Shown here: piece after piece, positions 211-12,233 of the stretch
How positions within the stretch are numbered: position 1 is the stretch's first letter
How the letters are laid out: every line of letters begins with the position of its first letter
From: a virus
Strand: one strand, 5' to 3'
Length of the DNA stretch: 13,540 bases
Virus record (IMG/VR): IMGVR_UViG_3300029305_004519
Location: 1 to 13,540 of that record
The notes under the pieces: model-generated
What the model was told of the DNA's origin: nothing
What the model saw: only the letters and a program-made list of their open reading frames with translations
Databases searched by the model: none
Position numbers and translations under genes: made by a program

Positions 211-630
211 ATGGAATTAACAGCTAATGCTCTACAAACAGTAGAGGTTAATCAAAATGTGTTATTTACTGACACACCCGTATGCGGAAGTTGCTCCATT
301 CTCCATCGTGAAGGTAGTGGTCAGGTGACTCTTCGCGGAATCACCAACCAATGCCGCGCAAGATTTAAGGCATTCTTCAGTGGGAATATTGCTATTCCCG
401 CTGAAGGTACTGTTGAAGCAATCTCAATTGCTCTTGCGGTAAATGGAGAAGCGATAGCTTCTACAACAATGATTCAGACACCTGCGGCAGTGGAAGAATT
501 TGCTAATGTAGCTAGTGCAGTATATATCGATGTACCTGCTGGTTGCTGCATTACCGTAAGTGTAAGAAATACAAGCACTCAAGCTATTGATGTTCAAAAT
601 GCAAATTTAATCGTAGAAAGGGTGGCGTAA
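211..630 (+). CDS. 139-aa protein resembling the BclA (exosporium) C-terminal C1q/TNF-like domain. Possibly the distal tip of a fibre or adhesin.
   Basis: ORF with GGAGG at 195-199 upstream. C-terminus ...ITVSVRNTSTQAIDVQNANLIVERVA and central ...IALAVNGEAIAST... resemble my recollection of the BclA CTD (ending ...SIIIEKVA; ...TIQVNGVPVPGT...). Stop TAA. Confidence 0.5.
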   Translation: MELTANALQTVEVNQNVLFTDTPVCGSCSILHREGSGQVTLRGITNQCRARFKAFFSGNIAIPAEGTVEAISIALAVNGEAIASTTMIQTPAAVEEFANVASAVYIDVPAGCCITVSVRNTSTQAIDVQNANLIVERVA

Positions 631-631
631 T

Positions 632-1330
632 ATGGATAAGCTAAAACAGATGAAGGAATGCTTAGTTGGCATGGTTGAAGGCCAAGTTTATGGAAACATA
701 GACAAGGTTGACGCGCAAGAGCTAGGCGCCGCCGTGGATATGATTAAAGATTTAAGCGAAGCAATTTATTATTGCACTATTACTGAAGCTATGAAAGATG
801 AGGGCGAAGATAAAGAAAAAGAGGGTAAAGGTAAACATGGCATGATGTATTATCCTCGTACTACTCCTATGTATCATCTTCCTTATCCTATTGAAATGTA
901 TGATCCTCGTATGCGTGAAAGATATAATGATCCCATGTATGCGCAGGGCAATGGTGGATACAATTCAACAAGCACTTCTGGAGGCAATAATGCCCGTGGC
1001 GGCGGTACCCGTGGCTATCGTGAGGGAATGATGCCTATGGATTATTACCCAATGTATAACGATGGTACTATATATGAACAGGGAAATGGTCGTGGTAGCA
1101 ATCGTAATTATTCTGACATGAGAGACCCTCGTGAAGGTCGTAGCGGCGAGCGCCGTAAGATGTACATGGAAGGAAAAGGCATGAAAGATAAAACGCATCA
1201 AATGAAAGAGTTGGAAGCTTACATGCAAGAATTAACGCAAGATATGACTGAAATGATTGCTGACGCAACTCCTGAAGAAAAACAGATGTTGCAGCAAAAG
1301 ATCAGCACTCTTGCTACAAAAATTAAATAA
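632..1330 (+). CDS. Hypothetical 232-aa protein. Helical N- and C-terminal regions flank a low-complexity Met/Tyr/Pro/Gly/Arg/Asn-rich core with repeated PMY / MYD / YYP motifs.
   Basis: ORF with AGGGTGG RBS 7 nt upstream. Stop TAA overlaps the next ATG (TAATG at 1328-1332). Strong compositional bias is visible in the translation. Confidence 0.6.
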   Translation: MDKLKQMKECLVGMVEGQVYGNIDKVDAQELGAAVDMIKDLSEAIYYCTITEAMKDEGEDKEKEGKGKHGMMYYPRTTPMYHLPYPIEMYDPRMRERYNDPMYAQGNGGYNSTSTSGGNNARGGGTRGYREGMMPMDYYPMYNDGTIYEQGNGRGSNRNYSDMRDPREGRSGERRKMYMEGKGMKDKTHQMKELEAYMQELTQDMTEMIADATPEEKQMLQQKISTLATKIK

Positions 1331-1653
1331 TGTTTACTATTAATGGAGAACAATGGTGGATAGTTTTAGTAATGCCATACGACGTTGCACTTTTAATGCC
1401 AAACGGTAACTATGCTATTGGGGCGTGTAATGACTCTACTAAAACTATATATATCAGTAATGAACTTCATGGTGAGGCATTTGAGAAAGTATTGTGTCAT
1501 GAGTTAGTGCATGCCGCGATGTTTGCTTATGATGTCATGTTAGAGCACGATGAAGAGGAGCTAATTGCAGAAATAATTGCAACTTTTGGAGAAGAGATAA
1601 TTGATATTACTGATATAATGTTCGACAAAATAAGAAGAGGAAGATATTATTAA
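1330..1653 (+). CDS. Small (107 aa) putative zinc metallopeptidase-like protein with an HExxH motif (CHELVHAAMF). SprT/WLM-like minimal fold.
   Basis: HELVH motif preceded by ...IYISNEL...EAFEKVL. TAATG translational coupling with the upstream gene. Stop TAA at 1651-1653 lies inside the terminator hairpin. Confidence 0.55.
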   Translation: MFTINGEQWWIVLVMPYDVALLMPNGNYAIGACNDSTKTIYISNELHGEAFEKVLCHELVHAAMFAYDVMLEHDEEELIAEIIATFGEEIIDITDIMFDKIRRGRYY

Positions 1654-1669
1654 TATCTTCCTTTTTTTT
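1638..1669. terminator. Rho-independent terminator shared by the convergent + and − gene blocks.
   Basis: Perfect 12-bp inverted repeat AGGAAGATATTA (1638-1649) / TAATATCTTCCT (1651-1662), followed by T8 on the + strand (1662-1669). On the − strand the same hairpin is followed by a CTTCTTATTTTG tract. The ruvC TAA stop is at 1668-1670. Confidence 0.6.
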
Positions 1670-2174
1670 ACCATGCAGCTGCACTATAATCTTTTTCTTT
1701 TTTTGGATGTAAAAATGCATGACCAATACATACAGCATCGGCTGTGTCATCACTAGTTAAAGATAATCCATATGTTCGATTTGCAAATTCTATATCCTTT
1801 TGTTTTTTCTATTCACGCTTTGAGGCGCGCCCATCCTCAATGCCGCATGTTGAGCGCCAAGAGCTTGGATACACCATTTCAATCTAAACTTCAGGATGTT
1901 TATCATGCATTTCAATATGAATAAACGCCTAAAGATACATAAGTGCACGAAAGGTATTAGTATTTTTACTATGATCTGGAATAACTTCTTCCATCACTAT
2001 TTTTTCAATTTTCATTTGTTCAACTATTGTTAAAATGCCGTCAACCATTTTATGGATTCTTTTATATAAATCGGTTGATGATGCGGTAATACAATTGCAT
2101 ACAAGCAAGTCTTTATCTTTAAACACTGCAAAACCAGTTGCTTTAGTTGAGCAATCTAACGCTAATAAGTACAT
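1668..2174 (-). CDS. ruvC: RuvC-like Holliday junction resolvase, 168 codons, with three in-frame TAG sense codons (plus-strand CTA at 1929-1931, 1884-1886, 1809-1811). Terminates at TAA 1668-1670.
   Basis: N-terminus MYLLALDCSTKATGFAVF is the RuvC fold catalytic Asp motif. After TAG the same frame continues ...AFIHIEMHDKHPEV[TAG]IEMVYPSSWRSTCGMRMGRASKRE[TAG]KKQKDIEFANRTYGLSLTSDDTADAVCIGHAFLHPKKEKDYSAAAW. The C-terminal DDTADAVCIGH matches the conserved RuvC C-terminal acidic/His motif (E. coli DAADALAIAITH). RBS GGAGGTG lies 5 nt upstream of the ATG at 2174. The standard-code ORF track gives only the 81-aa N-terminal piece. Confidence 0.75.
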
Positions 2175-2197
2175 AAATGCACCTCCATTCTAGGTAC

Positions 2198-2226
2198 ATT
2201 ATACTTAAAAATTTTTATTAAGTCAA
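2198..2226 (-). promoter_or_regulatory. Sigma70-like promoter P(ruvC): TTGACT-17-TATAAT.
   Basis: − strand -35 TTGACT (plus 2221-2226 agtcaa), 17-nt spacer (2204-2220), -10 TATAAT (plus 2198-2203 attata). The -35 is contiguous with the T6 tail of the upstream terminator. RBS and ATG of ruvC follow about 20 nt downstream. Confidence 0.5.
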
Positions 2227-2227
2227 A

Positions 2228-2252
2228 AAAGAGCAGATTAATTCTGCTCTTT
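2228..2252 (-). terminator. Rho-independent terminator ending the dut-containing operon. The stop codon of the upstream small ORF sits in the loop.
   Basis: Stem AAAGAGCAGA (2228-2237) / TCTGCTCTTT (2243-2252), loop TTAAT. On the − strand it is followed by TTTTTT (2225-2230 as aaaaaa on plus) running into the TTGACT -35. Confidence 0.55.
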
Positions 2253-2468
2253 CTATTGTTCTTGTTCTTTTTGAAGTTCTGTATTATATTTTTGAAGTGC
2301 TGTGTTATATTCAAGCTAAGCTTGCATTTGCGCCTCGTTATAGAGATCTTTTAAAATGATTGCCGCTTGATAAATAGGCAAGTGTAAGTCATTAATACCA
2401 TAATTAATAACACGAGCGACTTCTTGTTTAATCTATTCAAAAGCAACCTACTCAGGCATAATAGGCAT
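2238..2468 (-). CDS. Hypothetical 76-aa Gln/Glu/Lys-rich, probably coiled-coil, protein containing four in-frame TAG sense codons (plus CTA at 2448-2450, 2433-2435, 2316-2318, 2253-2255). Ends at TAA 2238-2240.
   Basis: − strand ATG at 2468 preceded by GAGGTG (overlapping the dut TGA). Translation is MPIMPE[TAG]VAFE[TAG]IKQEVARVINYGINDLHLPIYQAAIILKDLYNEAQMQA[TAG]LEYNTALQKYNTELQKEQEQ[TAG]KEQN. There is no TAA/TGA over 77 codons in about 33% GC DNA (chance about 0.015). It has nucleotide-level tandem repeats (TTTTGAAGTnCTGTnTTATAT x2) that correspond to heptad-like NTxLQK repeats. It is invisible to standard-code ORF calling. Confidence 0.5.
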
Positions 2469-2479
2469 TAAACTTCACC

Positions 2480-2965
2480 TCACTTATTTCCGCTAGATCC
2501 AAAACCTCCTACACCACGGGCTGTAGTGCCAATAGAAGTTGTTTCATTGAAAACAATAGGATTGAAGGGTTGAACAATAAGTTGGGCAATTCGTTCTCCA
2601 TGCTCAATTACTTGAATTTGATCTGAAGTATTTTTAAGTGCGACTATTACGGCACCTCGATAGTCTGCATCGATAATGCCTACAGTATTTGCAAGCACAA
2701 GACCGCGTTTTGTTGCATTGCCGCTACGAGGATAGATTGCGCCAAATGTGCCTTGAGGAAGCGCAATGGCAATGCCTGAAGAAATCTTACGTACCTCTCC
2801 CGGCGCCAAAGTAACGCGACTGGCGCCTTCAAGATCTGCATGCAGGTCATATCCAGCCGCCCAATCACTTCCATGAGTTGGCTCTTGCGCAGTCGGCGAA
2901 AGTTTTACATAATCAACAATAGTCGCATAATAATCAATTTGTGGAATAAAATTCATTTCAGTCAT
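2480..2965 (-). CDS. dut: dUTP diphosphatase (trimeric dUTPase).
   Basis: All five dUTPase motifs: AGYDL, PRSG, GIIDADYRG, GERIAQL, RGVGGFGSSG. Stop TGA. Confidence 0.9.
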   Translation of the reverse strand: MTEMNFIPQIDYYATIVDYVKLSPTAQEPTHGSDWAAGYDLHADLEGASRVTLAPGEVRKISSGIAIALPQGTFGAIYPRSGNATKRGLVLANTVGIIDADYRGAVIVALKNTSDQIQVIEHGERIAQLIVQPFNPIVFNETTSIGTTARGVGGFGSSGNK

Positions 2966-2967
2966 TA

Positions 2968-3219
2968 TTAAAACGCTCCAATCTTATATTCAACACTAGC
3001 TTCTCCGACGGGATCTTTAGGGTCATCAAAAGTCTTTACTAAAGTTACAATATAATATTCGTCAATAATTTCTCCTTTTGCTTTACGCTCTTTCTTTACT
3101 GAAGAATATTTTGATAAAATATATCTATTATCAGCCTTTGCTGCGTTGATTAATTCAGTCGCTTCTAATTCACTATCTGCGCGATGCTCTTCTGTTGTTT
3201 TTAATAAATATTTAGCCAT
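2968..3219 (-). CDS. Hypothetical protein (83 aa).
   Basis: ORF with AAGGAG RBS 9 nt upstream (GAGACTAAGGAGATAAAAGGAATG). Stop TAA 2 nt before the dut start. Confidence 0.6.
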   Translation of the reverse strand: MAKYLLKTTEEHRADSELEATELINAAKADNRYILSKYSSVKKERKAKGEIIDEYYIVTLVKTFDDPKDPVGEASVEYKIGAF

Positions 3220-3238
3220 TCCTTTTATCTCCTTAGTC

Positions 3239-3508
3239 TCACTTTACAAAACTAAATTTTAATTTAGCTTTGCCATAGCGAATTACTTGTCCATTCTCTG
3301 CATCTTCTAGGATCTTTGCACCATAAGAAGTAGATCCAGAAAAATCAATCTCTACGATATTGTATTTATCTGCAAGAGCATATACAATATCTCGAATATC
3401 ATCTGGTTTTACGCCCATTTGATCAACCAGAGTTCCATCTTTAATTACATAAATCTTTTGAAATGGTGCAGTAGGGCTAGTCCATACAATAATTTTATTA
3501 GTTTCCAT
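3239..3508 (-). CDS. Hypothetical protein (89 aa). Start moved to the internal ATG (METNKIIVW...).
   Basis: The long 127-aa ORF overlaps the upstream gene by 104 nt. The internal ATG at 3508 has a perfect RBS AAGGAGAG plus 5 nt (plus 3514-3520 ctctcctt) and removes the overlap. Stop TGA. Confidence 0.55.
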   Translation of the reverse strand: METNKIIVWTSPTAPFQKIYVIKDGTLVDQMGVKPDDIRDIVYALADKYNIVEIDFSGSTSYGAKILEDAENGQVIRYGKAKLKFSFVK

Positions 3509-3518
3509 TTTTCTCTCC

Positions 3519-3947
3519 TTAATATTCAAGCACTGCTTCTCCATAGGGGAAGAGATAATATGCAAAACATCCTTCAGAGTTACGAATCCACAACTCCCAT
3601 GTATTAGCCTCTTGTTCATCAATTACTAAAATTTCTCCACGATTAGACATACATTCAAGAATATCATTAACTGCGCTCATAACCGTCACTGGAGGAGCTG
3701 ATTTCCAAGTGCTTGTTTTATCAAGATTAAAGACAGTATAATCCTTTAATTCATTACATAAAAGCATTAGATATTTTTGATGGAAGTTATGCGTTACCCA
3801 TTGGCGTAAATGATTTTTAGCCAAGTCAAGCTCAGCTTCTGTAATTACTGGCTCATTTGCCATGAGTTGCTTATTCATTTCATATAAATTACCAAGACTC
3901 ACTTCTGATGTTTGCTTTGGAATTTTATCTTTATAATTAGCTTTCAT
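3519..3947 (-). CDS. Hypothetical protein (142 aa). First gene of the P2 transcription unit.
   Basis: ORF with RBS TAAGGAGCAAGATATG. Stop TAA. Confidence 0.6.
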   Translation of the reverse strand: MKANYKDKIPKQTSEVSLGNLYEMNKQLMANEPVITEAELDLAKNHLRQWVTHNFHQKYLMLLCNELKDYTVFNLDKTSTWKSAPPVTVMSAVNDILECMSNRGEILVIDEQEANTWELWIRNSEGCFAYYLFPYGEAVLEY

Positions 3948-3977
3948 ATCTTGCTCCTTAAATTACTTTATATAATA

Positions 3978-4006
3978 ATTATAATTTAATTTTTTTTAGT
4001 TGTCAA
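3978..4006 (-). promoter_or_regulatory. Consensus sigma70-type promoter P2: TTGACA-17-TATAAT.
   Basis: − strand -35 TTGACA (plus 4001-4006 tgtcaa), 17-nt spacer (3984-4000), -10 TATAAT (plus 3978-3983 attata). It lies about 30 nt upstream of the RBS and ATG at 3947. Confidence 0.55.
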
Positions 4007-4197
4007 TTATCTGTTTTTATATACATTCCGCAAGTGCAAATTGCGCCGATGGGCGCCTCACGAAACTCTTTACACATACATTTAGTATCCTCATTGCGGA
4101 AAATCTCAAGCACGCATGGGCAATGACCTTGCGCCTCTTTTATAGCCGCACGAATTTCTGCAGCCAATTCTGCACTGGCATATTGTCTTATTTTCAT
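4003..4197 (-). CDS. Small (64 aa) Cys-rich protein (HCPC...CMC...CTC), possibly metal-binding. Last gene of the nrd operon.
   Basis: ORF whose ATG (4197-4195) overlaps the nrdG TAA stop (TAATG). RBS AAAGGA upstream. Six Cys and one His in 64 aa. Stop TGA overlaps the P2 -35. Confidence 0.5.
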   Translation of the reverse strand: MKIRQYASAELAAEIRAAIKEAQGHCPCVLEIFRNEDTKCMCKEFREAPIGAICTCGMYIKTDN

Positions 4198-4679
4198 TAG
4201 CTAATCCTTTCCGCATATTGGTTTTGAGAAGCCAACTTTACGCCAAGTATTTTATCATAATGTGATTCGCTATTGGGGATATAGCGCCCAAATTTTATTA
4301 TGATGTTTGGAAATTGTTTTAATTCAATTAATTGATTTTCAATCTCATTTTTATTATAACCCGTATAAATAACAACATCGTCCATTATAGAATAACAATT
4401 GCGAAAAACAAAAAGGAAGTCGCGCAGGCCGTCGAATGTGTCAAACGGCTCTAATCCCTGGAAGCATACGGCGCGCGCAATTGGATTTGATTTGTAAAGA
4501 TTAATAATTGAGTCTATTGAGTATTCTTTAGTTGGGGCGGTAGCCAGTATGCTATTTTGACACACTGGCTGGCCGCACTCTTTATCACATTTAAAGCCTT
4601 TACAGATAGGAGATTCTATTGTCATACAAGGTGTTTTATAATTGACGAAATCTGTATCTATAATACCTTTCACTTTCAT
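4197..4679 (-). CDS. nrdG: Anaerobic ribonucleotide reductase activating protein (radical-SAM NrdG, short phage-type).
   Basis: Immediately downstream of nrdD with an ATGA overlap (4676-4679). ...VIYTGYNKNEIE resembles T4 NrdG ...VWTGYKLDEL. FQGLEPF resembles the GGDP(L) motif. N-terminal Cys cluster CKGFKCDKECGQPVC, with non-canonical spacing relative to CxxxCxxC. Stop TAA. Confidence 0.75.
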   Translation of the reverse strand: MKVKGIIDTDFVNYKTPCMTIESPICKGFKCDKECGQPVCQNSILATAPTKEYSIDSIINLYKSNPIARAVCFQGLEPFDTFDGLRDFLFVFRNCYSIMDDVVIYTGYNKNEIENQLIELKQFPNIIIKFGRYIPNSESHYDKILGVKLASQNQYAERIS

Positions 4680-6613
4680 TTATTAATTGGCTCCCATTTT
4701 CTCATTTTATATTCATTAGTACGCTCTTTAGACCATGTCTTAATAGGTGTATAAAATCCAACGATGCGAGTATATTCTGTTTCTATTGGTTTACCGCAGC
4801 AAGGACACGTTGTACCATAGAAAGCGTGATTATTCTCGCAGGCTTGAATCTTTGTGTTAAATGCAAAATAGGTTACTCCAGCATCAGAGATATAATTTAC
4901 CATATCCCAAGCTTTCTCGAAGCTATCAAAAGGAGAGTCGATATTCGCATGAAGAATAGATCCTCCATTGCAATAGCCATCAAACTCTGCGGCAATGCGT
5001 ACGCGTTCAGCAAGAGTTGTTTGAATGCCAAGAGGAATAAATTGGTTGCCATAAAGCGGAAGATCAAATACCTCTGCCTCGGGATAGAAGAATTTATCTT
5101 TTTTCATTAACTTAGCGGCAGCGCTTTCTCCTGGTATCTGCTCTGTATTTACATGATAATCAGCACCTGTTTCCAAAATAAAATCATCTGCCACTTGGCG
5201 CATGGTTTCAAAAATTTTCTTGCCAAGATTAGATGCTTGTTCTGTATAATAGACATTGCCAAATTCATCTGTACGAGTATAGCCAAAACGCTTCATTGTT
5301 TCATAAACTCCAATAAACCCAATGGTGTTATAAAGATGTTCAAAATCAACCAGCCCATTGGAAAAATTTGGTAAAAGCCCCTTCTCAACATTTCGCTTAA
5401 TAATATTTCTAACGCAGTGTAGAGCTTCAAGATTTAATCTTGTGCGATACTTAAGTTGTTCTAAATATTCTTCTTCGGTATCTACATCAAGCGCAAGGCG
5501 CGCAAGATTGATTGTAGACACCTTAACAGAGCCTACTTTAAGTGCTGTGCCGCCAATTGAGTTAAAGTAGCCTAAATCTTTAATGTCACTCTTCAAACGG
5601 CAACAGTTAGAAAGTGAAGTTACTGAATCGTCAATAAATAAATTACTGTCAGACCAGCGCATATTATGCTTTACGGCCCAGCGTGCAAATTCCTCATCCT
5701 GGAACTTACCTTCTTGTTTTAGAAGTGAGATTGAAAGCACTGGAAAAGTAAACATGTTCTTATCTCTAATATCCGCAACAGTCTCCATGTACCATTTTTG
5801 GAATTCAATAACTTCTTCCTCATAGTCAATCATAAATTCTCCATTCGGGAACTCACTGCCGCCAAATAGAGCTTCATAATAAGGTCTATCAAATACACTG
5901 GTATTCGTAAATGCAGATTGTGATCCATCACGAACATAGGGCTGATTCACTGCATAAACAAAGCGTTGGAAATTTTGGCGTGCGTATTTCTCTCCATTTC
6001 CGCTACTCTTGATACCAAGATAATCTTCTTCTATATCTTTATGCCAGAAGTAATACATATATGGAATAAGATTAGGAAGTCCGACCGCACCCGAAGAGCG
6101 ATTAGAAGCATAGCTAATAAACTCCTTAACAAAATCAACAAAAGTAGTTAAATGTTGAGCTGGCTCTGGATTAAACGGTGCGCCGATGAAGTACAATCCT
6201 TTTTCAGCTAGGTCTTTGAGATCATAAGCAAAACAATAATGTTTAAATGTTGAGGTATCAGCGTCATGCATATAAAGTTGACCAATCCACTCTGCGCGCA
6301 GCCATTCGTTTGCGCGTTTGAATCCAAAGTGTTTTTGCATTTCATAGTGAATTTTGTTATAAGCTAATAATTTTCTATGAGGTTTAGGCATTTCGTTTAA
6401 GAGAGTTACGATATCCTTTTTACTTACATTGCTATTGCCATCAATGCTTGCGTTAGCGACGACTTTAGTATCGATAAAGTTATCTATGAAATCGGTATAT
6501 GATAATTGATCATCATCAAAACCATTTAACCTAGCTAAATCAGTTCCGTACTCTCCCTAAAGTTTATTATAAGCAGTAACAAAATTCTTTTTTAATCTAA
6601 CATTAATTTCCAT
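4676..6613 (-). CDS. nrdD: Anaerobic (class III) ribonucleoside-triphosphate reductase NrdD, 645 codons, with one in-frame TAG sense codon at codon 19 (plus CTA 6557-6559). The track ORF 4676..6391 is only the portion after the first downstream Met.
   Basis: Strong RBS AAGGAGCAACAAAAGAATG at 6613. Frame reads MEINVRLKKNFVTAYNKL[TAG]GEYGTDLARLNGFDDDQLSYTDFIDNF...NEMPKPHRK... continuous with the 571-aa ORF. The ATG at 6391 has no SD. C-terminal Zn ribbon (C...CPCCGKP) and glycyl-radical motif TRIVGFY (resembling RVCGY). Stop TGA. Confidence 0.85.
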
Positions 6614-6818
6614 TCTTTTGTTGCTCCTTAATCCATTTGATAGCTTCAGTAAATTTATAAGTTACATTATCAACCTGTAAAATAGGTGCAGAACGGAACC
6701 CCATTGCCGCCATTACTGCTTGATCAGATACTGTGGTATATTGAATCTAAGCGGCATCTAATTTTGTTTTAAGAACTTTACATTGCGGGCAACCCGTTGA
6801 GTATAAAGTAATATTCAT
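6603..6818 (-). CDS. nrdH: NrdH / glutaredoxin-like redoxin (71 codons) with one in-frame TAG at codon 24 (plus CTA 6747-6749).
   Basis: RBS GGAGAAAATCAAATG. Translation is MNITLYSTGCPQCKVLKTKLDAA[TAG]IQYTTVSDQAVMAAMGFRSAPILQVDNVTYKFTEAIKWIKEQQKNGN. The CPQC active site lies N-terminal of the TAG and the cis-Pro region (SAPIL) C-terminal of it, so both halves of the thioredoxin fold need readthrough. It overlaps the nrdD start by 11 nt. Stop TAA. Confidence 0.7.
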
Positions 6819-6899
6819 TTGATTTTCTCCTTTTTATTTCATTTTAATTGTTTCATATTATAATAAAAATTATAATAGATAAATTATTTAATATTGACC
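6819..6899 (-). promoter_or_regulatory. AT-rich promoter region upstream of nrdH, with two TATAAT hexamers on the − strand (...CTATTATAATTTTTATTATAATATG...).
   Basis: 81-nt non-coding gap between the gmk-like stop and the nrdH RBS. -10-like hexamers are clear. The -35 is only weakly matched (TCAATA). Confidence 0.35.
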
Positions 6900-7529
6900 T
6901 TATTGTTCCATACGAGTAGGATGGATGCTATTTTTATATTGCTCAATATCCCCAAGCTGATACCAAATGCGTTCAAGTACAATTTCCATTGAGTGTCCAG
7001 AATGAGTTAAGTCTATACATCCATAATCATGATTATCAAGAATATAATAGTCAAAGTCTAGGTCTGCAAAATCCTCTTCATCAGTAAAATATCTTCTACA
7101 CATCTCTGCGCAATCAGGATTATCCTCTCTTGATAGATAACGCATTAATCTCTCTTTATCTGATGCATTTACATATACTACAGTAACTGCAATATCAGGA
7201 GATTCCAATAAAGCAGAGATACCTGCTGGATTAAAAACACCTAAATTAATTTTGTCTGGCGCCAAGGCTTCAATGGAAGTGCCATAAAACCAATCTCTAA
7301 ATTCGGTTGCTTCAAGCATTTCTCCATTAAGGACTTTGCGAGTAAATTCATTTAGTGTTAAAAAGTGATATGCTTCACCATCAATTTCTCCTTCTCTTGG
7401 TGGCCGAGTGGTGCAGCTTATAATTGGATTAAAAATATCTGGATGGGCCTTACAAGTGGCTCGTTGAATAGTGTCCTTGCCTGCGCCCGCTTTCCCAATG
7501 AGTGCAACTACTTGATATTTAGTTTTCAT
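6900..7529 (-). CDS. gmk: Guanylate-kinase-like nucleoside monophosphate kinase.
   Basis: P-loop IGKAGAGKDT. GMP-kinase motif ISCTTRPPREGEIDGEAYHF (resembling S.TTR.PR.GE.DG.DY.F). RBS AAGGAGAAAATAAAAATG. Stop TAA. Confidence 0.75.
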   Translation of the reverse strand: MKTKYQVVALIGKAGAGKDTIQRATCKAHPDIFNPIISCTTRPPREGEIDGEAYHFLTLNEFTRKVLNGEMLEATEFRDWFYGTSIEALAPDKINLGVFNPAGISALLESPDIAVTVVYVNASDKERLMRYLSREDNPDCAEMCRRYFTDEEDFADLDFDYYILDNHDYGCIDLTHSGHSMEIVLERIWYQLGDIEQYKNSIHPTRMEQ

Positions 7530-7701
7530 TTTTATTTTCTCCTTTTGTAAATTTCCTTATCCAAGCTTTATATTCTTCTTGAGCTTGAGCGAGATGCTTT
7601 AAAATAATATCTCGCTCAATGCTGCTATCTGTTCCTACTAAAATATGATACATAAACTCATTTTCATAAGTTTCTTCAGTGTAATCTTTTTGAATCATCA
7701 T
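7519..7701 (-). CDS. Hypothetical protein (60 aa), translationally coupled to dnaE.
   Basis: Its ATG overlaps the dnaE TGA (ATGA at 7698-7701). Stop TAA 8 nt into the gmk-like start region. Confidence 0.5.
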   Translation of the reverse strand: MMIQKDYTEETYENEFMYHILVGTDSSIERDIILKHLAQAQEEYKAWIRKFTKGENKNEN

Positions 7702-10700
7702 TCTTCCATATCCTTCCTTTCATGGACTAACTCCATATCTCTTCCATCGTTGAAAAGTGAAATCTTATAGATTTGATGAGTAGGAGTATGCTTGTAGGTT
7801 TTGGTTACGAACTGGTCACCACGCCTATAGCCCGTTAAGAGTAGCATCGTTCCTCTTTTGAACCAGCCTTTTTCCGTCACTTTCTTGCTTCCATCATCTT
7901 GAAGCTCCGACAATTGTTTCTTGTATTGCGCGTAGTATTCCTTCGTAAACTTAACAGTTACAACACCGCTTGGAGTTAACAAAGTGATGGACGCTTTATT
8001 ATCATTCTTTGCGATTACTGTTCCGATAATCTTATAGGTTTTCCAAATTGGAATTTGTTGGCCATTACGCTTGAAATAATATTCTGCTTCCGGGTTTTCA
8101 GGCAATGCAAAGAAATTTGAAATACCGTACTTATGGGTATTAATATTTGCTAATTCATGCTCATGATAGTAAAAACATAACGATTCCATTTCCCAAGAGG
8201 ATAAAGAACCTTGAGCATATTTATTCCAAGTATCCATAAAGAGCTGCGTATTAAGTTCGCGCAAAACTTCGCTCTGATTCTCCTTTAACCAGTCTCTGGC
8301 GCCGTCCATTTGTTTTTGATAAATTCCATCCCAAGTCTTCTGTTGAATACAAGTTAAACCATTAATAACTTCTAATTTTTCAATATCAAAGTTATCTTTA
8401 TAGAATTTATAGCAAGGTTCGTCAAATACAAAGTATTTTCCAACTTTTGTATTTGCTTTGAGATATTTATTAAATTCAAATACTCTACGCTCAAAGTCAA
8501 GTGACTCTGGAACCAATCCACGCTGAATAAGCCCATTAAAGTTTTGTAAAGTCAGTTTGCTCTTAGGCTCACAAGCCTTTGATAAATAATATGCCATGAC
8601 AACAAAACGAGGATGAATATTTAACTCTTTACCCCATTCTGTCTCAAGTCTATCAAAGGCGCCCGCCTTAATTAGAGAAATCATCTGCGTTTTATTAAGC
8701 GGACAACGCGTCATAAAATCGGCGATATTAGCATAAGGTCTGCCGCTTATTATCTGCTCAATTACTTCGCTATTGATTCCGCTCAATGCTTTCATACCGA
8801 AGAGGATTTGATTATTCTCAATATCAGGCTTAAAGCTAAATTGAGATTTATTTATATCAACTAAAGATACATTAATACCTGCTGACAAAATATCACCAAG
8901 TGCCTTTGCTAGTTTGGTATAATCTGTCTGCTTATCTTTTGCTTCTTCATCGTCATCTTCATTATCATATCCTTCAAGCGAACCACTATTAACGATTAAG
9001 TTTGCAGTATTCCAATAAATAGGATTCCATCTTGTGGCGGCGTATGCTGTCTGAAAACCAATAAAGCTATAAGCAAGCGCATGGATAATGGAAAACGAGT
9101 ATCCCATTTGCGGGCCGATACCATGCTTCCAAACGTAATGACCCATACATGGGGAGCTAGCCTGGTCAAGAACTTGTTGTTGCAAAGCAGGGATCTTAGA
9201 CATTTGCTTCTTTCCGACGATTTTTCTGGCGGCGTTGGCGTCCGCAAGGCTAAACCCACAAATCTTAGGATCCATCAACATCTGCATCATCTGCTCCTGA
9301 GAAGGAGGAACACCATGAGACTTTAAGAAGTAAGGTTTTAATACTTCTTGTTCCTCTTTAGTAAGACCAAATTCATCCATTTCTTTATACCAAAGGTTGA
9401 TATTATTTTTGAAACGAACATACTTTTCCATTGGTGTTTCTTGACCTTTTTCATTAGTCATAAGTCGCATCAAACCATTGGCATCCGCCAGCTCAAGAAT
9501 ACTTGATGGACGAATCTTCTTAGCGGCTTGGGCGCCCACATCTGAATCAAATTGGAACAATCCTAAAACTTCAACATTTTGAATTGGCTTCCAATACTTT
9601 TCTTCTTCAATAGGTAATACATTTGGATGAAAGTATTTATCATATATTTGGCGCAAGGTCATATCTGACTCTAATTCACCAGTCTCTTGCAACATGTTAA
9701 TGGTTTCTACGAGTTTATCTTGTACTTCCGTTACGAGGAAGTCGTATTTTACCATTCCAAGCGCCTCACAAGTGTGAAGGTCAAACTGCGTTATAACCTC
9801 TCCTTTTGGAGTTCTCATGAAAGCGCCAAATTCATATGGATCTTCATCAAACAAAATAACTCCAGATGCGTGAGATGAGCGCTTGTTCTTAAGACCTTCA
9901 ATCGAAGTCATAATTTCCAAAAGCCCAGGATAATGATTTACTTCTCTAACGAACGAGGCCACTGGCTTACGATCTTTATCTGGGTTACCATTAACCACAT
10001 CATTGATACTCCACAAGAATCCTCTCTCTTGCGGAACAAGAGAAGTAAGATATTGCGCCATATCAACATCAATACCGTCTGGATATTCTTCACTACGATA
10101 GCCGCGGCAAGCGGTCAATATTGCGCTCTTTGTGGTTTCTGTACCAAAGGTTGCAATAAGTGTACAACCTAAGTTAGCGCGAGACAGTTCATCAATATCT
10201 GCATTAAACTTGGCGCCACGCTCTTCCTTAATCTTTTTAAGAATGTAAGGTCTTTTGCTTGGACATAGATCTAAGTCTATATCGCCGAGCTCGATACGTT
10301 CCTTATTAAGGTAGCGCCAGAAGGGAAGGTTCCACTCTATAGGATCAAGTTGGGTAACTCCAAGCAGATAATGGTTTAGACCTGAGCAACTTGAACCACG
10401 ACCGGCGCCAACCATAGAACCGCACTCCCAAAACAGATCAATATAATGCTGAAGTGTAACAGGATATGCGAACATATTTGTTTCCAGTTTTTCACTAATC
10501 GTTCTTTTGATATCCGCCTCTTCTTCAAGTCTATCCAAATATTGTGAATGATCATTAACCAAATCATAAAGAGTTGCTTGTTTTTTATCGCTCAAACTCT
10601 CCAAACATTGATTTACCCAATACCTCTCCACTTGATTATCAGAATTTAGCAATTCGGTTAAAGTTGGATAGTGTATCGCAATAAAGTATTCTTCTTCATT

Positions 10701-11672
10701 ACAAGGCTTTGTTAAATCAACCTTAGGATACTCTTTTACTTCAACTTTGGGAATTCTTTGCTTATGACGAATACTATAATTTTCAATTTTATCATAGATA
10801 GATAAGCTATTTTTAAATAAATTGCTAATATAATAATCATCATTGAAAGATTTTCGTAAGTTTTCAAAAATCTCTTCTTCAGTTTGGAGATAAGAATATT
10901 CATAGAAACTATCTACTTCTCTTTCTCCGCCTTTGGAATTAAGATATGCTTTATGAACATATCTATCTTCCTTTGAGAGATAGTGTGCGTCACTGCCAAT
11001 TACCATTGGAATTCGCATTGCATCAGAGATTTGACGCAACTTTTTATTAACTACTATCTGATCTCTTGAAGCGGCGGGCGCACACTCCAAATAAAAGTCA
11101 TCTCCAAAAAGATTCTTACACCAAGAGATAAAATCAACTATATGGTTATATTCTCGTTGTCTTGTTTCCATATCAAACATAGCTTCTGCATTTATCATAT
11201 TTGCAACTGCTGTTGATAACTCTCCACCGAGACAAGCAGTTGTTGCTATAAGTGAATCTGGATATTTATTTACGATTTCTTTAAGGTCTGACTTAAGAGT
11301 TACCACTCTCTCCATACCACGATCCCAATAGCTATTGAGCCAAGCGCGCGATGATAATTCTCTTAATGCGCGCCATCCGACGGAATTCTTAGCCAAAAGT
11401 ATAAAGTGATAATACTTTTGACTCATGTCTCTTGTATCGCAGAGATATATTTCATTTCCAAGAGCCACCTTAAAATCAGGATGCTCTTCTCTTATCTTTT
11501 CACCGTAGAAACTTGCGGCGGGCAGGTTACTTAAACATTCATGATCAGTAATACTTACACCGGCAAGTCCAATCTTCACGGCTTTATCAATTAAATCTTC
11601 TACACGGTTAATACTATCAAGCAGTCTTGTGTTTGAAGTATCAGTATGCGTGTGGATTTCAAATCGAAGCAT
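7698..11672 (-). CDS. dnaE: DNA polymerase III alpha subunit-like (C-family, DnaE-type) replicative polymerase, 1324 aa. It contains no TAG codon.
   Basis: N-terminal PHP domain (FEIHTHTDTSNTRLLDS...GLAGVSITDHECLSN). Length and C-terminal OB-fold-like region are typical of DnaE. RBS GAGAGGAGTAAAAGATG. Stop TGA. Confidence 0.85.
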   Translation of the reverse strand: MLRFEIHTHTDTSNTRLLDSINRVEDLIDKAVKIGLAGVSITDHECLSNLPAASFYGEKIREEHPDFKVALGNEIYLCDTRDMSQKYYHFILLAKNSVGWRALRELSSRAWLNSYWDRGMERVVTLKSDLKEIVNKYPDSLIATTACLGGELSTAVANMINAEAMFDMETRQREYNHIVDFISWCKNLFGDDFYLECAPAASRDQIVVNKKLRQISDAMRIPMVIGSDAHYLSKEDRYVHKAYLNSKGGEREVDSFYEYSYLQTEEEIFENLRKSFNDDYYISNLFKNSLSIYDKIENYSIRHKQRIPKVEVKEYPKVDLTKPCNEEEYFIAIHYPTLTELLNSDNQVERYWVNQCLESLSDKKQATLYDLVNDHSQYLDRLEEEADIKRTISEKLETNMFAYPVTLQHYIDLFWECGSMVGAGRGSSCSGLNHYLLGVTQLDPIEWNLPFWRYLNKERIELGDIDLDLCPSKRPYILKKIKEERGAKFNADIDELSRANLGCTLIATFGTETTKSAILTACRGYRSEEYPDGIDVDMAQYLTSLVPQERGFLWSINDVVNGNPDKDRKPVASFVREVNHYPGLLEIMTSIEGLKNKRSSHASGVILFDEDPYEFGAFMRTPKGEVITQFDLHTCEALGMVKYDFLVTEVQDKLVETINMLQETGELESDMTLRQIYDKYFHPNVLPIEEEKYWKPIQNVEVLGLFQFDSDVGAQAAKKIRPSSILELADANGLMRLMTNEKGQETPMEKYVRFKNNINLWYKEMDEFGLTKEEQEVLKPYFLKSHGVPPSQEQMMQMLMDPKICGFSLADANAARKIVGKKQMSKIPALQQQVLDQASSPCMGHYVWKHGIGPQMGYSFSIIHALAYSFIGFQTAYAATRWNPIYWNTANLIVNSGSLEGYDNEDDDEEAKDKQTDYTKLAKALGDILSAGINVSLVDINKSQFSFKPDIENNQILFGMKALSGINSEVIEQIISGRPYANIADFMTRCPLNKTQMISLIKAGAFDRLETEWGKELNIHPRFVVMAYYLSKACEPKSKLTLQNFNGLIQRGLVPESLDFERRVFEFNKYLKANTKVGKYFVFDEPCYKFYKDNFDIEKLEVINGLTCIQQKTWDGIYQKQMDGARDWLKENQSEVLRELNTQLFMDTWNKYAQGSLSSWEMESLCFYYHEHELANINTHKYGISNFFALPENPEAEYYFKRNGQQIPIWKTYKIIGTVIAKNDNKASITLLTPSGVVTVKFTKEYYAQYKKQLSELQDDGSKKVTEKGWFKRGTMLLLTGYRRGDQFVTKTYKHTPTHQIYKISLFNDGRDMELVHERKDMEE

Positions 11673-11707
11673 CTTTTACTCCTCTCTGTTAGTTTTTATA
11701 TATAATA

Positions 11708-11736
11708 ATTATAACTTATTTTTTACAAAAAATCAA
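11708..11736 (-). promoter_or_regulatory. Sigma70-like promoter P(dnaE): TTGATT-17-TATAAT.
   Basis: − strand -35 TTGATT (plus 11731-11736 aatcaa), 17-nt spacer, -10 TATAAT (plus 11708-11713). The -35 is formed from the tail of the upstream terminator. RBS and ATG of dnaE lie about 30 nt downstream. Confidence 0.5.
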
Positions 11737-11758
11737 GCCGTATCACCTGATACGGCTT
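11735..11758 (-). terminator. Rho-independent terminator after the helicase-side operon.
   Basis: Stem AAGCCGTATCA / TGATACGGCTT with a 2-nt loop. On the − strand it is followed by GATTTTTTG. On the + strand it is preceded by A6 and followed by TTTT, so it is potentially bidirectional. The TGA of the upstream ORF lies in the loop. Confidence 0.55.
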
Positions 11759-11943
11759 TTATCATTATAAAGTGCGGTATAATATTGTTCTAAATCAGAA
11801 AAAGATTCTTGAACGCGTAAATGTTTTGAAATAGTTTCGATAAAACATCCGCCTCCTCTTAAATCAGAGGCGTCTGATATTGAAATCACATGGTTAAGAT
11901 TTAATAATATTGGGCCAGTTGTAGTAGTAACCTCAATAAACAT
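11743..11943 (-). CDS. Hypothetical protein (66 aa). Start placed at the second ATG.
   Basis: The first ATG (11958) has no SD. The second ATG has GGAGGT plus 7 nt, just after the upstream TAA. Stop TGA inside the terminator hairpin. Confidence 0.5.
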   Translation of the reverse strand: MFIEVTTTTGPILLNLNHVISISDASDLRGGGCFIETISKHLRVQESFSDLEQYYTALYNDKSRIR

Positions 11944-11944
11944 A

Positions 11945-12232: not shown

Positions 12233-12233
12233 T

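What the first reader, a model, noticed from the sequence alone, without database searches (positions are those of the whole stretch)
1668..11672. TAG usage is strikingly gene-specific: none in the replication genes, concentrated in ruvC and the adjacent small ORF
dnaE (1324 codons), gmk-like (209), dut (161), nrdG (160) and the helicase fragment (191) contain no TAG. In contrast, ruvC has 3 in 168 codons and the small ORF has 4 in 77. If TAG were used uniformly at the rate seen in the four recoded genes (about 1%), roughly 20 would be expected in the TAG-free genes. ruvC also sits in its own transcription unit, with a terminator and a dedicated promoter at 2198-2252. This is the signature proposed for recoded phages: genes needed early avoid the recoded codon, and later-acting genes (a resolvase for concatemer processing) require suppression. 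Here it can be seen at single-operon resolution.
Basis: partly seen in the sequence, partly recalled or inferred. Interest (0 to 1): 0.7.

Follow-up and report, generated by a model that had tools for sequence, protein, structure and literature searches.

The report
Amber codons concentrated in phage resolvase gene
This is part of a phage that reads the stop codon TAG as glutamine but keeps it out of its DNA-replication genes and packs it into its DNA-cutting resolvase gene, a known kind of pattern thought to delay some proteins until late in infection.

Summary
Observation confirmed. With TAG read as sense, the window has 21 genes and 9 in-frame TAGs. Seven lie in ruvC (3 in 168 codons) and the adjacent 76-codon ORF (4). 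nrdD and a glutaredoxin-like gene have one each. dnaE, gmk, dut, nrdG and the helicase fragment have none. TAG aligns with conserved Gln at four sites. Relatives carry the argument. In 26 recoded relatives DnaE has 0 TAG in 34,075 codons. RuvC carries TAG in 12 of 12 and has the highest TAG share of any well-sampled gene family. In the closest relative the virion module has 14.8 TAG per 1000 codons against 2.2 in the DNA module. A tRNA-Gln-like CUA suppressor sits in that relative's nearly TAG-free early region. The ruvC terminator and promoter are conserved. This is the published pattern of standard-code replication genes and recoded late genes, here in a siphophage distantly related to Phass-1 and EF1. 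Timing is untested, and the probable capsid and tail-tube genes also lack TAG. The new detail is the resolvase as preferred target. In passing: two related clades appear to read TAG as glutamate.

The parts
1668..2174 (-). ruvC-like Holliday junction resolvase, 168 codons, with 3 in-frame TAG (codons 82, 97, 122 = window 1929-1931, 1884-1886, 1809-1811). Last gene of the minus-strand DNA-metabolism array.
   Evidence: ORF and TAG positions. PHROG phrog_159, 827 and 1770 at 1e-19 to 1e-13. Pfam RuvC and DUF3882 just below cut-off. Weak profile hit to E. coli RuvC 1HJR. D7, D142, D143 and D146 invariant in 13 orthologues. Codon 82 aligns with Gln in 19 orthologues.
2238..2468 (-). Small ORF of 76 codons, function unknown, Gln-rich and probably coiled coil, with 4 in-frame TAG (codons 7, 12, 51, 72 = 2448-2450, 2433-2435, 2316-2318, 2253-2255).
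   Evidence: No Pfam or PHROG hit. A 75-aa orthologue in L003/L004 (45% identity) has CAA at the positions of codons 12 and 51 and no TAG. GAGGTG ribosome-binding site upstream.
2228..2252 (-). Terminator-like stem-loop (AAAGAGCAG-AATTAAT-CTGCTCTTT followed by a T run). It overlaps the stop codon of the small ORF.
   Evidence: A hairpin plus T run at the same place in most relatives.
2198..2226 (-). Sigma-70-type promoter of ruvC: TTGACT, 17 nt, TATAAT (11 of 12), followed by a GGAGGTG ribosome-binding site at 2180-2186.
   Evidence: Conserved upstream of RuvC in relatives: 12 of 12 in standard-code relatives, 10-11 of 12 in most recoded ones; L005 lacks it.
4676..6613 (-). nrdD (anaerobic ribonucleotide reductase), 645 codons, with one TAG at codon 19 (6557-6559) in the N-terminal extension. 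Standard-code gene calling starts it at 6391.
   Evidence: The TAG aligns with CAA or CAG in 13 orthologues. The public call is 571 aa.
6603..6818 (-). Glutaredoxin/NrdH-like gene, 71 codons, one TAG at codon 24 (6747-6749).
   Evidence: The Pfam Glutaredoxin hit is weak and below cut-off (E=0.0016, 19.0 bits against 22.9). The aligned column is variable (G, K, N) in relatives.
7698..11672 (-). dnaE (Pol III alpha-type polymerase), 1324 codons, 54 Gln codons, no in-frame TAG (18 and 20 TAG in the two other frames).
   Evidence: 77 orthologues covering 100,660 codons have no TAG. 26 distinct orthologues from recoded relatives, 34,075 codons, have none.
6900..7529 (-). Guanylate-kinase-like gene, 209 codons, no TAG.
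2480..2965 (-). dUTPase, 161 codons, no TAG.
4197..4679 (-). nrdG-like activating enzyme, 160 codons, no TAG.
   Evidence: Only a weak Pfam Fer4_12 hit, below cut-off. No TAG in 12 orthologues from recoded relatives.
12949..13540 (-). C-terminal part of a UvrD-like helicase (191 codons from the first ATG; the reading frame runs off the window), no TAG.
   Evidence: Full-length orthologues (395 aa) have 0 TAG in 6849 codons of 18 recoded relatives.
11708..11758 (-). Hairpin (11735-11758) and promoter (TTGATT, 17 nt, TATAAT; 11736-11708) upstream of dnaE. It carries the box TATAATTATTATATA, shared with the g142 promoter.
3978..4006 (-). Consensus promoter (TTGACA, 17 nt, TATAAT; 12 of 12) upstream of g142 (3519-3947, TAG-free), with the same TATAATTATTATATA box.
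1638..1662 (.). Palindromic hairpin between the converging ends of the plus-strand genes (SprT-like gene ends at 1653) and ruvC (ends at 1668). Probable two-way terminator.
211..1653 (+). Last three genes of the plus-strand (virion-side) module: g139, g232 and an SprT-like 107-aa protein. None has TAG in the window.
   Evidence: Orthologues in recoded relatives carry a few TAG.

Best explanation
The window is the end of the DNA-metabolism module of a siphophage of about 135 kb. The phage is distantly related to Phass-1 and Enterococcus phage EF1 and reads TAG as glutamine.

Proposed mechanism:
1. Decoding is by a phage-encoded tRNA-Gln-like suppressor with anticodon CUA. It has been found only in the closest relative, where it has its own consensus promoter inside a nearly TAG-free stretch of early genes.
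2. The host is assumed to use the standard code. A gene containing TAG then gives only truncated product until enough suppressor has accumulated.
3. Genes of the core replisome and nucleotide supply are kept free of TAG by purifying selection, because they must be translated before that point. These are dnaE, helicases, primase, ligase, gyrase and nrdG.
4. Genes whose products are needed, or only tolerated, later carry TAG. These are most virion-assembly genes, homing endonucleases, the RecJ-like exonuclease and above all the RuvC resolvase.
5. For ruvC the codons would act as a translational delay or safety lock on a structure-specific nuclease. The gene is transcribed from a strong sigma-70-type promoter of the same kind as its TAG-free neighbours.

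Shown: the codon distribution, TAG = Gln, its conservation across relatives, the suppressor tRNA in the close relative, and the conserved transcription unit.
Inferred: the host's code, the order of expression, and that the distribution is adaptive for ruvC.
For: - TAG = Gln. nrdD codon 19, ruvC codon 82 and small-ORF codons 12 and 51 align with CAA or CAG in orthologues. In the close relative TAG replaces CAG: tape measure CAA 89, CAG 13, TAG 82; dnaE CAA 30, CAG 28, TAG 0.
- Conservation in recoded relatives: DnaE 0 TAG in 34,075 codons (26 orthologues), helicase 0 in 6849, primase 0 in 5141, nrdG 0. RuvC has 63 TAG in 1937 codons, present in 12 of 12.
- RuvC exceeds the rest of its own locus in 12 of 12 loci.
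- In the Gln-type clades RuvC has CAA 8, CAG 0, TAG 25, so TAG is 76% of Gln-type codons (hand sum). The tape measure protein has 41%.
- TAG positions in RuvC differ between lineages (32 alignment columns), so the enrichment is maintained or re-created rather than inherited once.
- Module contrast in the closest relative: 14.8 against 2.2 TAG per 1000 codons. A further 20 kb of early genes has only 5 TAG, on a rough ORF call that includes one doubtful 129-aa frame. That stretch holds gyrB, gyrA, ligase, RNase H and a sigma factor.
- Suppressor tRNA(CUA) at L271:8496-8570. Rfam tRNA score 58.9 bits. Its acceptor end is of tRNA-Gln type (my own reading of the sequence) and it is similar to a Phass-1 suppressor tRNA.
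- RuvC identity.
- The ruvC terminator-promoter unit is conserved.
- The model matches published work on other recoded phages.
Against: - No expression data exist. Promoter type does not separate TAG-free from TAG-containing genes.
- The suppressor tRNA has a 12 of 12 promoter, so it may be made from the first minutes of infection, which would shorten any delay.
- Several virion-module genes, including the probable major capsid and major tail proteins, are TAG-free. Timing alone therefore cannot explain the distribution.
- Standard-code relatives run the same ruvC promoter unit without any TAG, and Phass-1 RuvC has none. The lock is therefore not essential.
- The suppressor tRNA was found in a relative (DnaE 93% identical), not in the window's own genome.
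- The host and its genetic code are unknown.
- Orthologues are related sequences, so the counts are not independent events.
Confidence: 0.6

Rival explanations
1. Permissive drift combined with ordinary codon bias. Once a suppressor exists, CAG decays to TAG under AT-biased mutation wherever this costs little. TAG is purged only from genes under strong translational selection, meaning highly expressed or very long essential genes. The pattern then has no timing function, and ruvC is simply a short, weakly expressed gene that drifted far.
For: - TAG-rich genes have almost no CAG, while TAG-free genes keep it.
- The probable capsid and tail-tube genes are TAG-free and CAG-rich, as in Phass-1.
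- Phass-1 RuvC has no TAG.
- Standard-code relatives need no lock.
- The small ORF is TAG-rich in the window but TAG-free in the nearest relative.
Against: - DnaE, primase and the helicases are not abundant proteins, yet show 0 TAG in about 46,000 codons.
- The tape measure gene carries 82 TAG in 3142 codons, so suppression must be efficient and length as such is no obstacle.
- RuvC exceeds even the tape measure gene. Pooled over both kinds of recoded clade it has 63 TAG of 101 Gln-type codons against 220 of 538, Fisher p=8e-5.
- RuvC is TAG-rich in every recoded lineage examined, including clades that seem to read TAG as a different amino acid.
Confidence: 0.25
2. Dosage attenuator rather than timer. 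Read-through of TAG is incomplete throughout infection, and several TAGs keep the amount of a potentially toxic resolvase low.
For: - A resolvase is needed only in catalytic amounts (general knowledge).
- It has a near-consensus promoter and a good ribosome-binding site, which might otherwise over-produce it.
Against: Genes with 20 to 82 TAG (tail proteins, tape measure) could not yield full-length product unless read-through per codon were close to complete. At that efficiency, three TAGs would attenuate ruvC very little once the suppressor is present.
Confidence: 0.08
3. The ruvC and small-ORF cassette was acquired horizontally from a more heavily recoded phage, so its TAG content reflects a foreign origin.
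For: - The cassette is a self-contained unit with its own terminator and promoter.
- Phage genomes are mosaic (general knowledge).
Against: - RuvC sits at the same place behind the same promoter in relatives. In the Gln-type clades its identity to the window falls in step with DnaE: 81/93%, 62/73%, 45/67%. In more distant relatives it is 31-50% against DnaE 60-68%.
- The TAG positions differ between lineages.
- The small ORF of the nearest relative has no TAG.
Confidence: 0.04
4. Local degradation or error. ruvC and the small ORF are pseudogenes, or the TAGs are assembly errors.
For: Standard-code gene callers report only fragments here: ruvC as 81 aa, the glutaredoxin-like gene as 36 aa.
Against: - ruvC has no in-frame TAA or TGA before its terminal stop, while its other two frames have 10 and 13.
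- Catalytic acidic residues are invariant.
- The same TAGs appear in independent assemblies.
- TAG-bearing RuvC is found in 12 divergent lineages.
Confidence: 0.01

Closest known systems
Alternatively coded gut phages of Borges et al. (bioRxiv 10.1101/2021.08.26.457843): crAss-like, Garnet, Topaz, Agate, Jade, Sapphire, Lak
   Same: - Hosts are predicted to use the standard code.
- Suppressor tRNA is encoded in a standard-code region.
- Structural genes are recoded. DNA replication machinery is in standard code in the crAss-like and Agate representatives, and its use of the alternative code is variable across clades.
- Only a few gene families are preferentially recoded.
- A homing endonuclease inserted in an early gene is strongly recoded. 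Here, GIY-YIG endonucleases in the DNA module likewise carry TAG.
   Different: - Their preferentially recoded families are lysis proteins, tail proteins and an intron endonuclease. Resolvase, RuvC and major capsid are not mentioned.
- Here the top family is a RuvC resolvase inside the replication module.
- No lysis cassette was identified in the 90 kb examined.
- This is a different phage group: a DnaE-type polymerase and a tape measure protein of about 3100 aa.
Phass-1 and the proposed Phassvirus group (Babkin et al. 2023, PMC10607447; GenBank OQ749652)
   Same: - Genome of about 135 kb and a tape measure protein of about 3150 aa.
- TAG read as Gln, with tRNA-Sup(CTA) genes.
- nrdD/nrdG, dut and DnaE present.
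- Part of a monophyletic group that includes Enterococcus phage EF1 and mixes recoded and standard-code members.
- In my own count of Phass-1, DnaE, helicase, primase, the capsid-like protein and the major tail protein have 0 TAG, and the tape measure has 110.
- One of its suppressor tRNAs resembles the one in the window's close relative.
   Different: - Only distant: DnaE 36%, major tail 44%, capsid-like protein 46% identity, and no nucleotide match.
- Phass-1 RuvC has no TAG.
- Phass-1 carries 36 tRNAs, two of the suppressors next to nrdD. The window has no tRNA.
- That paper does not analyse codon use gene by gene.
crAss-like phages using code 15 (Yutin et al. 2021, PMC7886860; Peters et al. 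2022, PMC9523058)
   Same: TAG is read as Gln mostly in late genes, suppressor tRNAs are present, and the code switches at short phylogenetic distance. The abstract of Peters et al. reports proteomic proof of TAG = Gln.
   Different: - Unrelated podophages of Bacteroidota with block-wise code use.
- Here the contrast is visible gene by gene within one module, and related clades appear to use a second meaning of TAG.
Late-acting phage junction resolvases such as T4 endonuclease VII (gp49) (own knowledge, not tested here)
   Same: A branch-cutting nuclease is needed to clear concatemer junctions before packaging, and it is potentially harmful to replicating DNA if made too early.
   Different: Control of those enzymes is described at the level of transcription and protein isoforms, not through codon meaning. 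They belong to a different protein fold family from RuvC.

Membership tests
Phage with TAG reassigned to Gln (translation table 15) | In-frame TAG in conserved protein-coding genes whose reading frames are otherwise intact | tested here: met
   ruvC, nrdD, the glutaredoxin-like gene and the small ORF. Apart from its terminal TAA, ruvC has no TAA or TGA in frame, against 10 and 13 in its other frames.
Phage with TAG reassigned to Gln (translation table 15) | TAG aligns with conserved Gln in homologues | tested here: met
   nrdD codon 19 (13 orthologues CAA or CAG), ruvC codon 82 (Q in 19), small-ORF codons 12 and 51. The window is placed in the Gln class.
Phage with TAG reassigned to Gln (translation table 15) | TAG not used as a terminator | tested here: met
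   All 21 genes of the window end in TAA or TGA. The sample is small, and the gene ends were defined with TAG read as sense.
Phage with TAG reassigned to Gln (translation table 15) | Suppressor tRNA with anticodon CUA of Gln type in the genome | tested here: inconclusive
   None in the window. Present in the closest relative (DnaE 93% identical) at L271:8496-8570, of tRNA-Gln type by my own reading of its acceptor end. The corresponding region of the window's own genome is not available.
Phage with TAG reassigned to Gln (translation table 15) | Peptide evidence for Gln at TAG | not testable with these tools
   Needs proteomics.
Stop-codon recoding as a late-gene switch (Borges et al. model) | Replication machinery encoded in standard code | tested here: met
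   DnaE, helicases, primase, DnaB, ligase, gyrA, gyrB and nrdG are TAG-free in the window and in relatives.
Stop-codon recoding as a late-gene switch (Borges et al. model) | Structural genes use the recoded codon | tested here: met
   In the closest relative: tape measure 82 TAG, tail fibre 32, tail protein 20, portal 8; 20 of 33 virion-module genes carry TAG. However, 13 are TAG-free, including the probable capsid and tail-tube genes.
Stop-codon recoding as a late-gene switch (Borges et al. model) | Lysis genes most strongly recoded | not tested
   No lysis cassette was identified in the 90 kb of the relative that was examined.
Stop-codon recoding as a late-gene switch (Borges et al. model) | Recoded genes are expressed later than standard-code genes | not testable with these tools
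   Promoter type does not discriminate. Needs a transcript or protein time course.
RuvC-like Holliday junction resolvase | Profile match to the family | tested here: met
   PHROG phrog_159, 827 and 1770 at 1e-19 to 1e-13. Pfam RuvC at 19.8 bits is below its 22.2 cut-off. E. coli RuvC 1HJR at E=0.0075 with a 13-sequence profile.
RuvC-like Holliday junction resolvase | Catalytic acidic residues | tested here: met
   D7, D142, D143 and D146 are invariant. The Glu aligned to E66 of E. coli RuvC (E62 of the window's MEEV) is E in 19 of 21 orthologues and TAG in two.
RuvC-like Holliday junction resolvase | RNase H-like fold | not tested
Proposed genus Phassvirus (Phass-1) | Nucleotide similarity and shared synteny at genus level | tested here: not met
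   No megablast match. Protein identities are 36-46%. Gene order around dnaE differs. It belongs to the same broad group, not the same genus.

The most novel reading that the evidence does not exclude
The RuvC resolvase is a specifically selected target of code-based translational gating. The same rule (core replisome free of TAG, resolvase with the highest TAG share) appears in clades of this phage family that recoded TAG separately, and apparently to two different amino acids: Gln in the window's clade and Glu in two other clades. If so, the window shows one instance of a convergent way of locking a DNA-cutting enzyme until the code switch. The family would also contain a TAG-to-Glu code, which I did not find reported for phages in the library searched.
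Probability: 0.35. Interest if true: 0.8.

Novelty: new member of a known kind. Interest (0 to 1): 0.45.

Why it matters
It adds a clean, gene-level example to the idea that recoded phages use the meaning of a stop codon as a clock.
- Within one module, enzymes that build DNA are written in the host's code, while enzymes that cut or trim DNA are written in the phage's code. The second group comprises the resolvase, a RecJ-like exonuclease and homing endonucleases.
- This gives a small, testable target. Swapping three codons in one 168-codon gene asks whether recoding controls timing or is only tolerated drift.
- Practically, standard gene callers break these genes into fragments, so resolvases and reductases of such phages are under-annotated.
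- The family mixes standard-code clades, Gln-type clades and apparently Glu-type clades at 60-75% DnaE identity. That makes it a useful system for studying how stop-codon reassignment starts.

Tried and rejected
- Nucleotide search of GenBank phages: no match.
- tRNA search of the window and of the first 268 loci: no suppressor tRNA.
- Rfam on the window: nothing.
- Pfam on the probable capsid, scaffold, tail-tube, terminase and 586-aa proteins: nothing. 'Major capsid' therefore rests on position and size only. 'Major tail' rests on annotated Bacillus phage homologues.
- Using promoter class to infer timing was rejected, because consensus sigma-70-type promoters precede both TAG-free and TAG-containing genes. 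The phage also encodes its own full-length sigma-70-family factor.
- I first argued that recoded RuvC doubled its Gln content, so that TAGs were added rather than substituted. I withdraw this. The pooled set mixed Gln-type and apparent Glu-type clades. In Gln-type clades alone the rise is small, about 5.5 against 4 codons per gene.
- Pseudogene, assembly error and horizontal acquisition were considered and rejected (see the rival explanations).
- A theta ribozyme next to the suppressor tRNA (Kienbeck et al. 2024) was considered. Rfam found only the tRNA there, and I did not pursue it.


Full report
**1. What is in the window**

With TAA and TGA as the only stops, the window resolves into a compact gene array.

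- Three plus-strand genes at 211-1653: g139, g232 and an SprT-like protein.
- A minus-strand array converging on them: ruvC (1668-2174), a 76-codon ORF (2238-2468), dut, three small genes, nrdG, nrdD, a glutaredoxin-like gene, gmk, a 60-codon ORF, dnaE (7698-11672), five small ORFs, and the C-terminal part of a UvrD-like helicase that runs off the end.

Pfam supports dut, nrdD, gmk, dnaE and the helicase. The nrdG and glutaredoxin hits are weak and below their cut-offs. RuvC is below the Pfam cut-offs but matches three PHROG resolvase families at 1e-19 to 1e-13. It also has invariant D7, D142, D143 and D146. The window has no tRNA and no Rfam match.

**2. The observation**

- There are nine in-frame TAGs in 4265 codons: three in ruvC, four in the small ORF, one in nrdD (codon 19) and one in the glutaredoxin-like gene (codon 24).
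- There are none in dnaE, gmk, dut, nrdG or the helicase fragment.
- ruvC plus the small ORF hold 7 TAG among 18 Gln-type codons, against 2 among 153 elsewhere (Fisher p=1.4e-6).
- The 'about 20 expected' is circular, because the 1% rate comes only from genes chosen for containing TAG. At the window-wide rate the five named genes expect 4.3 TAG (P of none = 0.013), and dnaE alone gives P=0.054.

Inside the window, then, the clustering is solid but the emptiness of the replication genes is only suggestive.

**3. TAG is a sense codon, and here it means Gln**

- nrdD codon 19, ruvC codon 82 and small-ORF codons 12 and 51 align with CAA or CAG in orthologues.
- Apart from its terminal stop, ruvC has no TAA or TGA in frame, while its other two frames have 10 and 13.
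- The same TAGs occur in independent assemblies from other samples.

Degradation and assembly error are therefore excluded.

**4. Relatives**

IMG/VR holds a large family with DnaE 60-95% identical to the window's. By walking along the 135-kb contig IMGVR_UViG_3300029705_000054 (DnaE 93% identical), I assembled 90 kb with no mismatch in the overlaps that were checked.

Its layout, in window orientation:
- terminase, portal, a scaffold-like 453-aa protein and a probable capsid protein of 350 aa;
- head-tail genes and the major tail protein (307 aa);
- a 3142-aa tape measure protein, a 1654-aa fibre with chaperone domain and further tail genes;
- the window's g139, g232 and SprT-like genes;
- then, on the other strand, ruvC through dnaE, followed by helicase, RecJ-like exonuclease, primase, DnaB, ThyX, ligase, gyrA, gyrB, RNase H and a sigma-70-family factor.

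TAG counts in this relative:

| Region or gene | TAG | Codons | Source |
|---|---|---|---|
| Virion module | 193 (14.8 per 1000) | 13,009 | |
| DNA module | 27 (2.2 per 1000) | 12,012 | |
| Tape measure | 82 | 3142 | |
| Fibre | 32 | 1654 | |
| 738-aa tail protein | 20 | 738 | |
| Portal | 8 | 534 | |

TAG is neither evenly spread nor confined to this locus.

TAG replaces CAG in particular. The tape measure has CAA 89, CAG 13, TAG 82, while dnaE has CAA 30, CAG 28, TAG 0.

**5. The gene-level rule is conserved**

Among loci from recoded relatives, with duplicates removed:

| Gene family | TAG | Codons | Orthologues |
|---|---|---|---|
| DnaE | 0 | 34,075 | 26 |
| Helicase | 0 | 6849 | 18 |
| Primase | 0 | 5141 | 14 |
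| nrdG | 0 | 1901 | 12 |
| RuvC | 63 | 1937 | 12 (TAG present in all 12) |

- RuvC has a higher TAG share than the rest of its own locus in 12 of 12 loci.
- In the Gln-type clades RuvC has CAA 8, CAG 0, TAG 25 (hand sum). TAG is thus 76% of Gln-type codons, against 41% in the tape measure gene.
- The TAG positions in RuvC differ between lineages (32 alignment columns).
- GIY-YIG homing endonucleases and the RecJ-like exonuclease in the DNA module also carry TAG.

Within the DNA module, enzymes that synthesise DNA are therefore TAG-free, and enzymes that cut or trim it are not.

One possible bias: the DnaE loci were retrieved with DnaE as the query. However, a TAG would only split the tblastn match, not hide it. 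Phass-1, analysed independently, also has a TAG-free DnaE.

**6. The decoding machinery**

- Its ends read UGGGG...CCCCU-G-CCA. This matches tRNA-Gln identity features by my own reading, and it resembles one of the Phass-1 suppressor tRNAs.
- It has its own TTGACA-17-TATAAT promoter and a hairpin terminator.
- It lies among early genes that are almost free of TAG.

The equivalent region of the window's own genome is not available, so for this phage the suppressor is inferred.

**7. The ruvC transcription unit**

The hairpin, the near-consensus promoter and the ribosome-binding site upstream of ruvC are conserved in nearly all relatives. The promoter matches 12 of 12 in standard-code relatives and 10-11 of 12 in most recoded ones.

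- The same promoter type precedes TAG-free g142 and dnaE and the TAG-containing portal gene.
- The phage encodes its own sigma-70-family factor.
- One small difference exists. The dnaE and g142 promoters share a TATAATTATTATATA box that the ruvC promoter lacks. Its meaning is unknown.

**8. Limits of the early/late reading**

- Thirteen of 33 virion-module genes in the relative have no TAG. They include the probable capsid protein, the scaffold-like protein, the major tail protein and two fibre-like proteins.
- Across the recoded relatives sampled, the capsid-like family has 0 TAG in 2412 codons and the major tail family 7 in 4336. Phass-1 shows the same.
- These genes prefer CAG, so selection on highly expressed genes also shapes the pattern.
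- Phass-1 RuvC has no TAG, and standard-code relatives use the same ruvC unit without any lock.
- On the other side, 82 TAG in one gene means suppression must be nearly complete late in infection. Inefficiency therefore cannot explain why low-abundance replisome genes avoid TAG completely.

**9. What is known**

- Borges et al. describe exactly this pattern: the alternative code in structural and lysis genes and standard code in the replication genes of their crAss-like and Agate representatives. Suppressor tRNAs lie in standard-code regions, and a few families are preferentially recoded, including an intron endonuclease in an early gene. They do not mention resolvases or capsid genes.
- Yutin et al. 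report reassignment mostly in late genes of crAss-like phages.
- Babkin et al. describe Phass-1 and a monophyletic group containing EF1, with both recoded and standard members. The window's phage is a distant member of that group.
- I found no paper reporting a resolvase as a preferred target.

The finding is therefore a new member of a known kind, with one new detail.

**10. Seen in passing: a second meaning of TAG**

I tallied TAGs at alignment columns that are conserved in standard-code relatives. The recoded loci then split into two classes.

| Class | Loci | TAG at conserved Gln | TAG at conserved Glu |
|---|---|---|---|
| Gln type |: L098, L113, L124, L127, L148, L155; one search also places the window, L001, L003/L004, L005, L019, L082, L086, L087 here | 44 | 5 |
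| Glu type | L032-L050 and L062-L075, plus loci found later | 0 | 54 |

Further evidence for the second class:
- A RecJ column that is Glu in 94% of 32 standard orthologues is TAG in nine sequences.
- The column of the catalytic Glu of RuvC is TAG in L062 and L070.
- Composition agrees. In these clades RecJ has Glu codons 5.3% plus TAG 1.4%, against 7.1% Glu in standard relatives, while Gln is unchanged at 3.3% against 3.4%.
- By DnaE similarity the two Glu-type clusters, the window's clade and L019 are interleaved with standard-code clusters. This is average linkage, not a proper tree.
- In the L062-L075 cluster RuvC is again TAG-rich (24 of 45 Glu-type codons) and DnaE is again empty. RuvC was not captured in the loci of the L032-L050 cluster.

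No suppressor tRNA was found for these clades. In the library searched I found no report of TAG read as Glu in phages. The Lak paper saw some TAG aligned with E but read them as Gln.

This lies outside the window and rests on alignments only. If it holds, it is more surprising than the finding itself, and it strengthens the case that the resolvase is a selected target.

**11. Verdict**

The pattern and its fit to the published model hold, but timing and adaptive value are untested.
- Ordinary in kind, with a useful new detail and a promising side lead.

Noticed in passing
Loci L032, L035, L036, L039-L043, L048-L050, L062, L069, L070, L072, L074, L075, L268, L298, L308, L317, L318, L332, L343 (for example RuvC of L062 and L070; RecJ-like gene of L032, L039, L040, L042, L049, L268): In two clades of relatives (DnaE 60-66% identical to the window's) in-frame TAG falls only on columns that are conserved Glu in standard-code relatives: 54 Glu against 0 Gln. 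In the window's class the split is 44 Gln against 5 Glu. The sites include the column of RuvC's catalytic Glu. Amino-acid composition agrees with TAG = Glu. I found no report of this for phages in the library searched.
   Followed up: partly
L271:8357-8620 (contig IMGVR_UViG_3300029705_000054, about 48.7 kb): Suppressor tRNA(CUA) of tRNA-Gln type with its own 12 of 12 promoter and a hairpin terminator, lying between an RNase H gene and a small ORF upstream of gyrB. There is an unexplained leader of about 110 nt between the promoter and the tRNA.
   Followed up: partly
L271:1102-2037: The close relative encodes a full-length sigma-70-family factor (regions 1.2, 2, 3 and 4) in the nearly TAG-free early region. 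The many consensus -35/-10 promoters in the phage may therefore be read by the phage's own sigma factor.
   Followed up: no
window 3954-3994 and 11684-11724: The g142 and dnaE promoters share a near-palindromic box, TATAATTATTATATA, overlapping the -10 element. The same box precedes three TAG-free operons in the relative and is absent from the ruvC promoter. It may be an operator or the mark of a promoter class.
   Followed up: partly
window about 6234-6241, compared with L003:16097-17227: The relative's nrdD reads through an in-frame insert of about 1.1 kb (1049 aa against 645 aa), which looks like an intein with an endonuclease. The window's nrdD lacks it.
   Followed up: no
ref contig genes next to dnaE, RecJ, ThyX (L003, L182, L189); window 11743-12941: Relatives carry GIY-YIG and other homing-endonuclease genes between replication genes, each with 1-4 TAG. 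The window has five small unrelated ORFs at the corresponding place.
   Followed up: no
L081 (JGI 3300032167, identical to the window over the shared part): Public standard-code gene calls fragment the recoded genes: ruvC as 81 aa, nrdD as 571 aa and the glutaredoxin-like gene as 36 aa. A 160-aa gene with 6 TAG lies about 1.2 kb left of the window and is split into pieces of 44 and 35 aa.
   Followed up: yes
Phass-1 OQ749652: 62445-62610 and 57681-58190: In Phass-1 two of the three suppressor tRNAs lie directly upstream of nrdD, and its RuvC homologue has no TAG and no CAG (CAA 8).
   Followed up: partly
RecJ-like gene (ref 58637-60430; orthologues in 15 recoded loci): The RecJ-like exonuclease has one TAG in the window's nearest relative. 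The 15 orthologues from recoded relatives carry 112 TAG in total, most of them in the apparent Glu-type clades (73 in nine orthologues). This makes it a second DNA-processing enzyme that is recoded inside the replication module.
   Followed up: partly
window 211-1330: g139 matches an uncharacterised phage family end to end (phrog_20016, 7e-59). g232 is a low-complexity protein rich in Gly, Asn, Arg, Met and Tyr with no family match.
   Followed up: no
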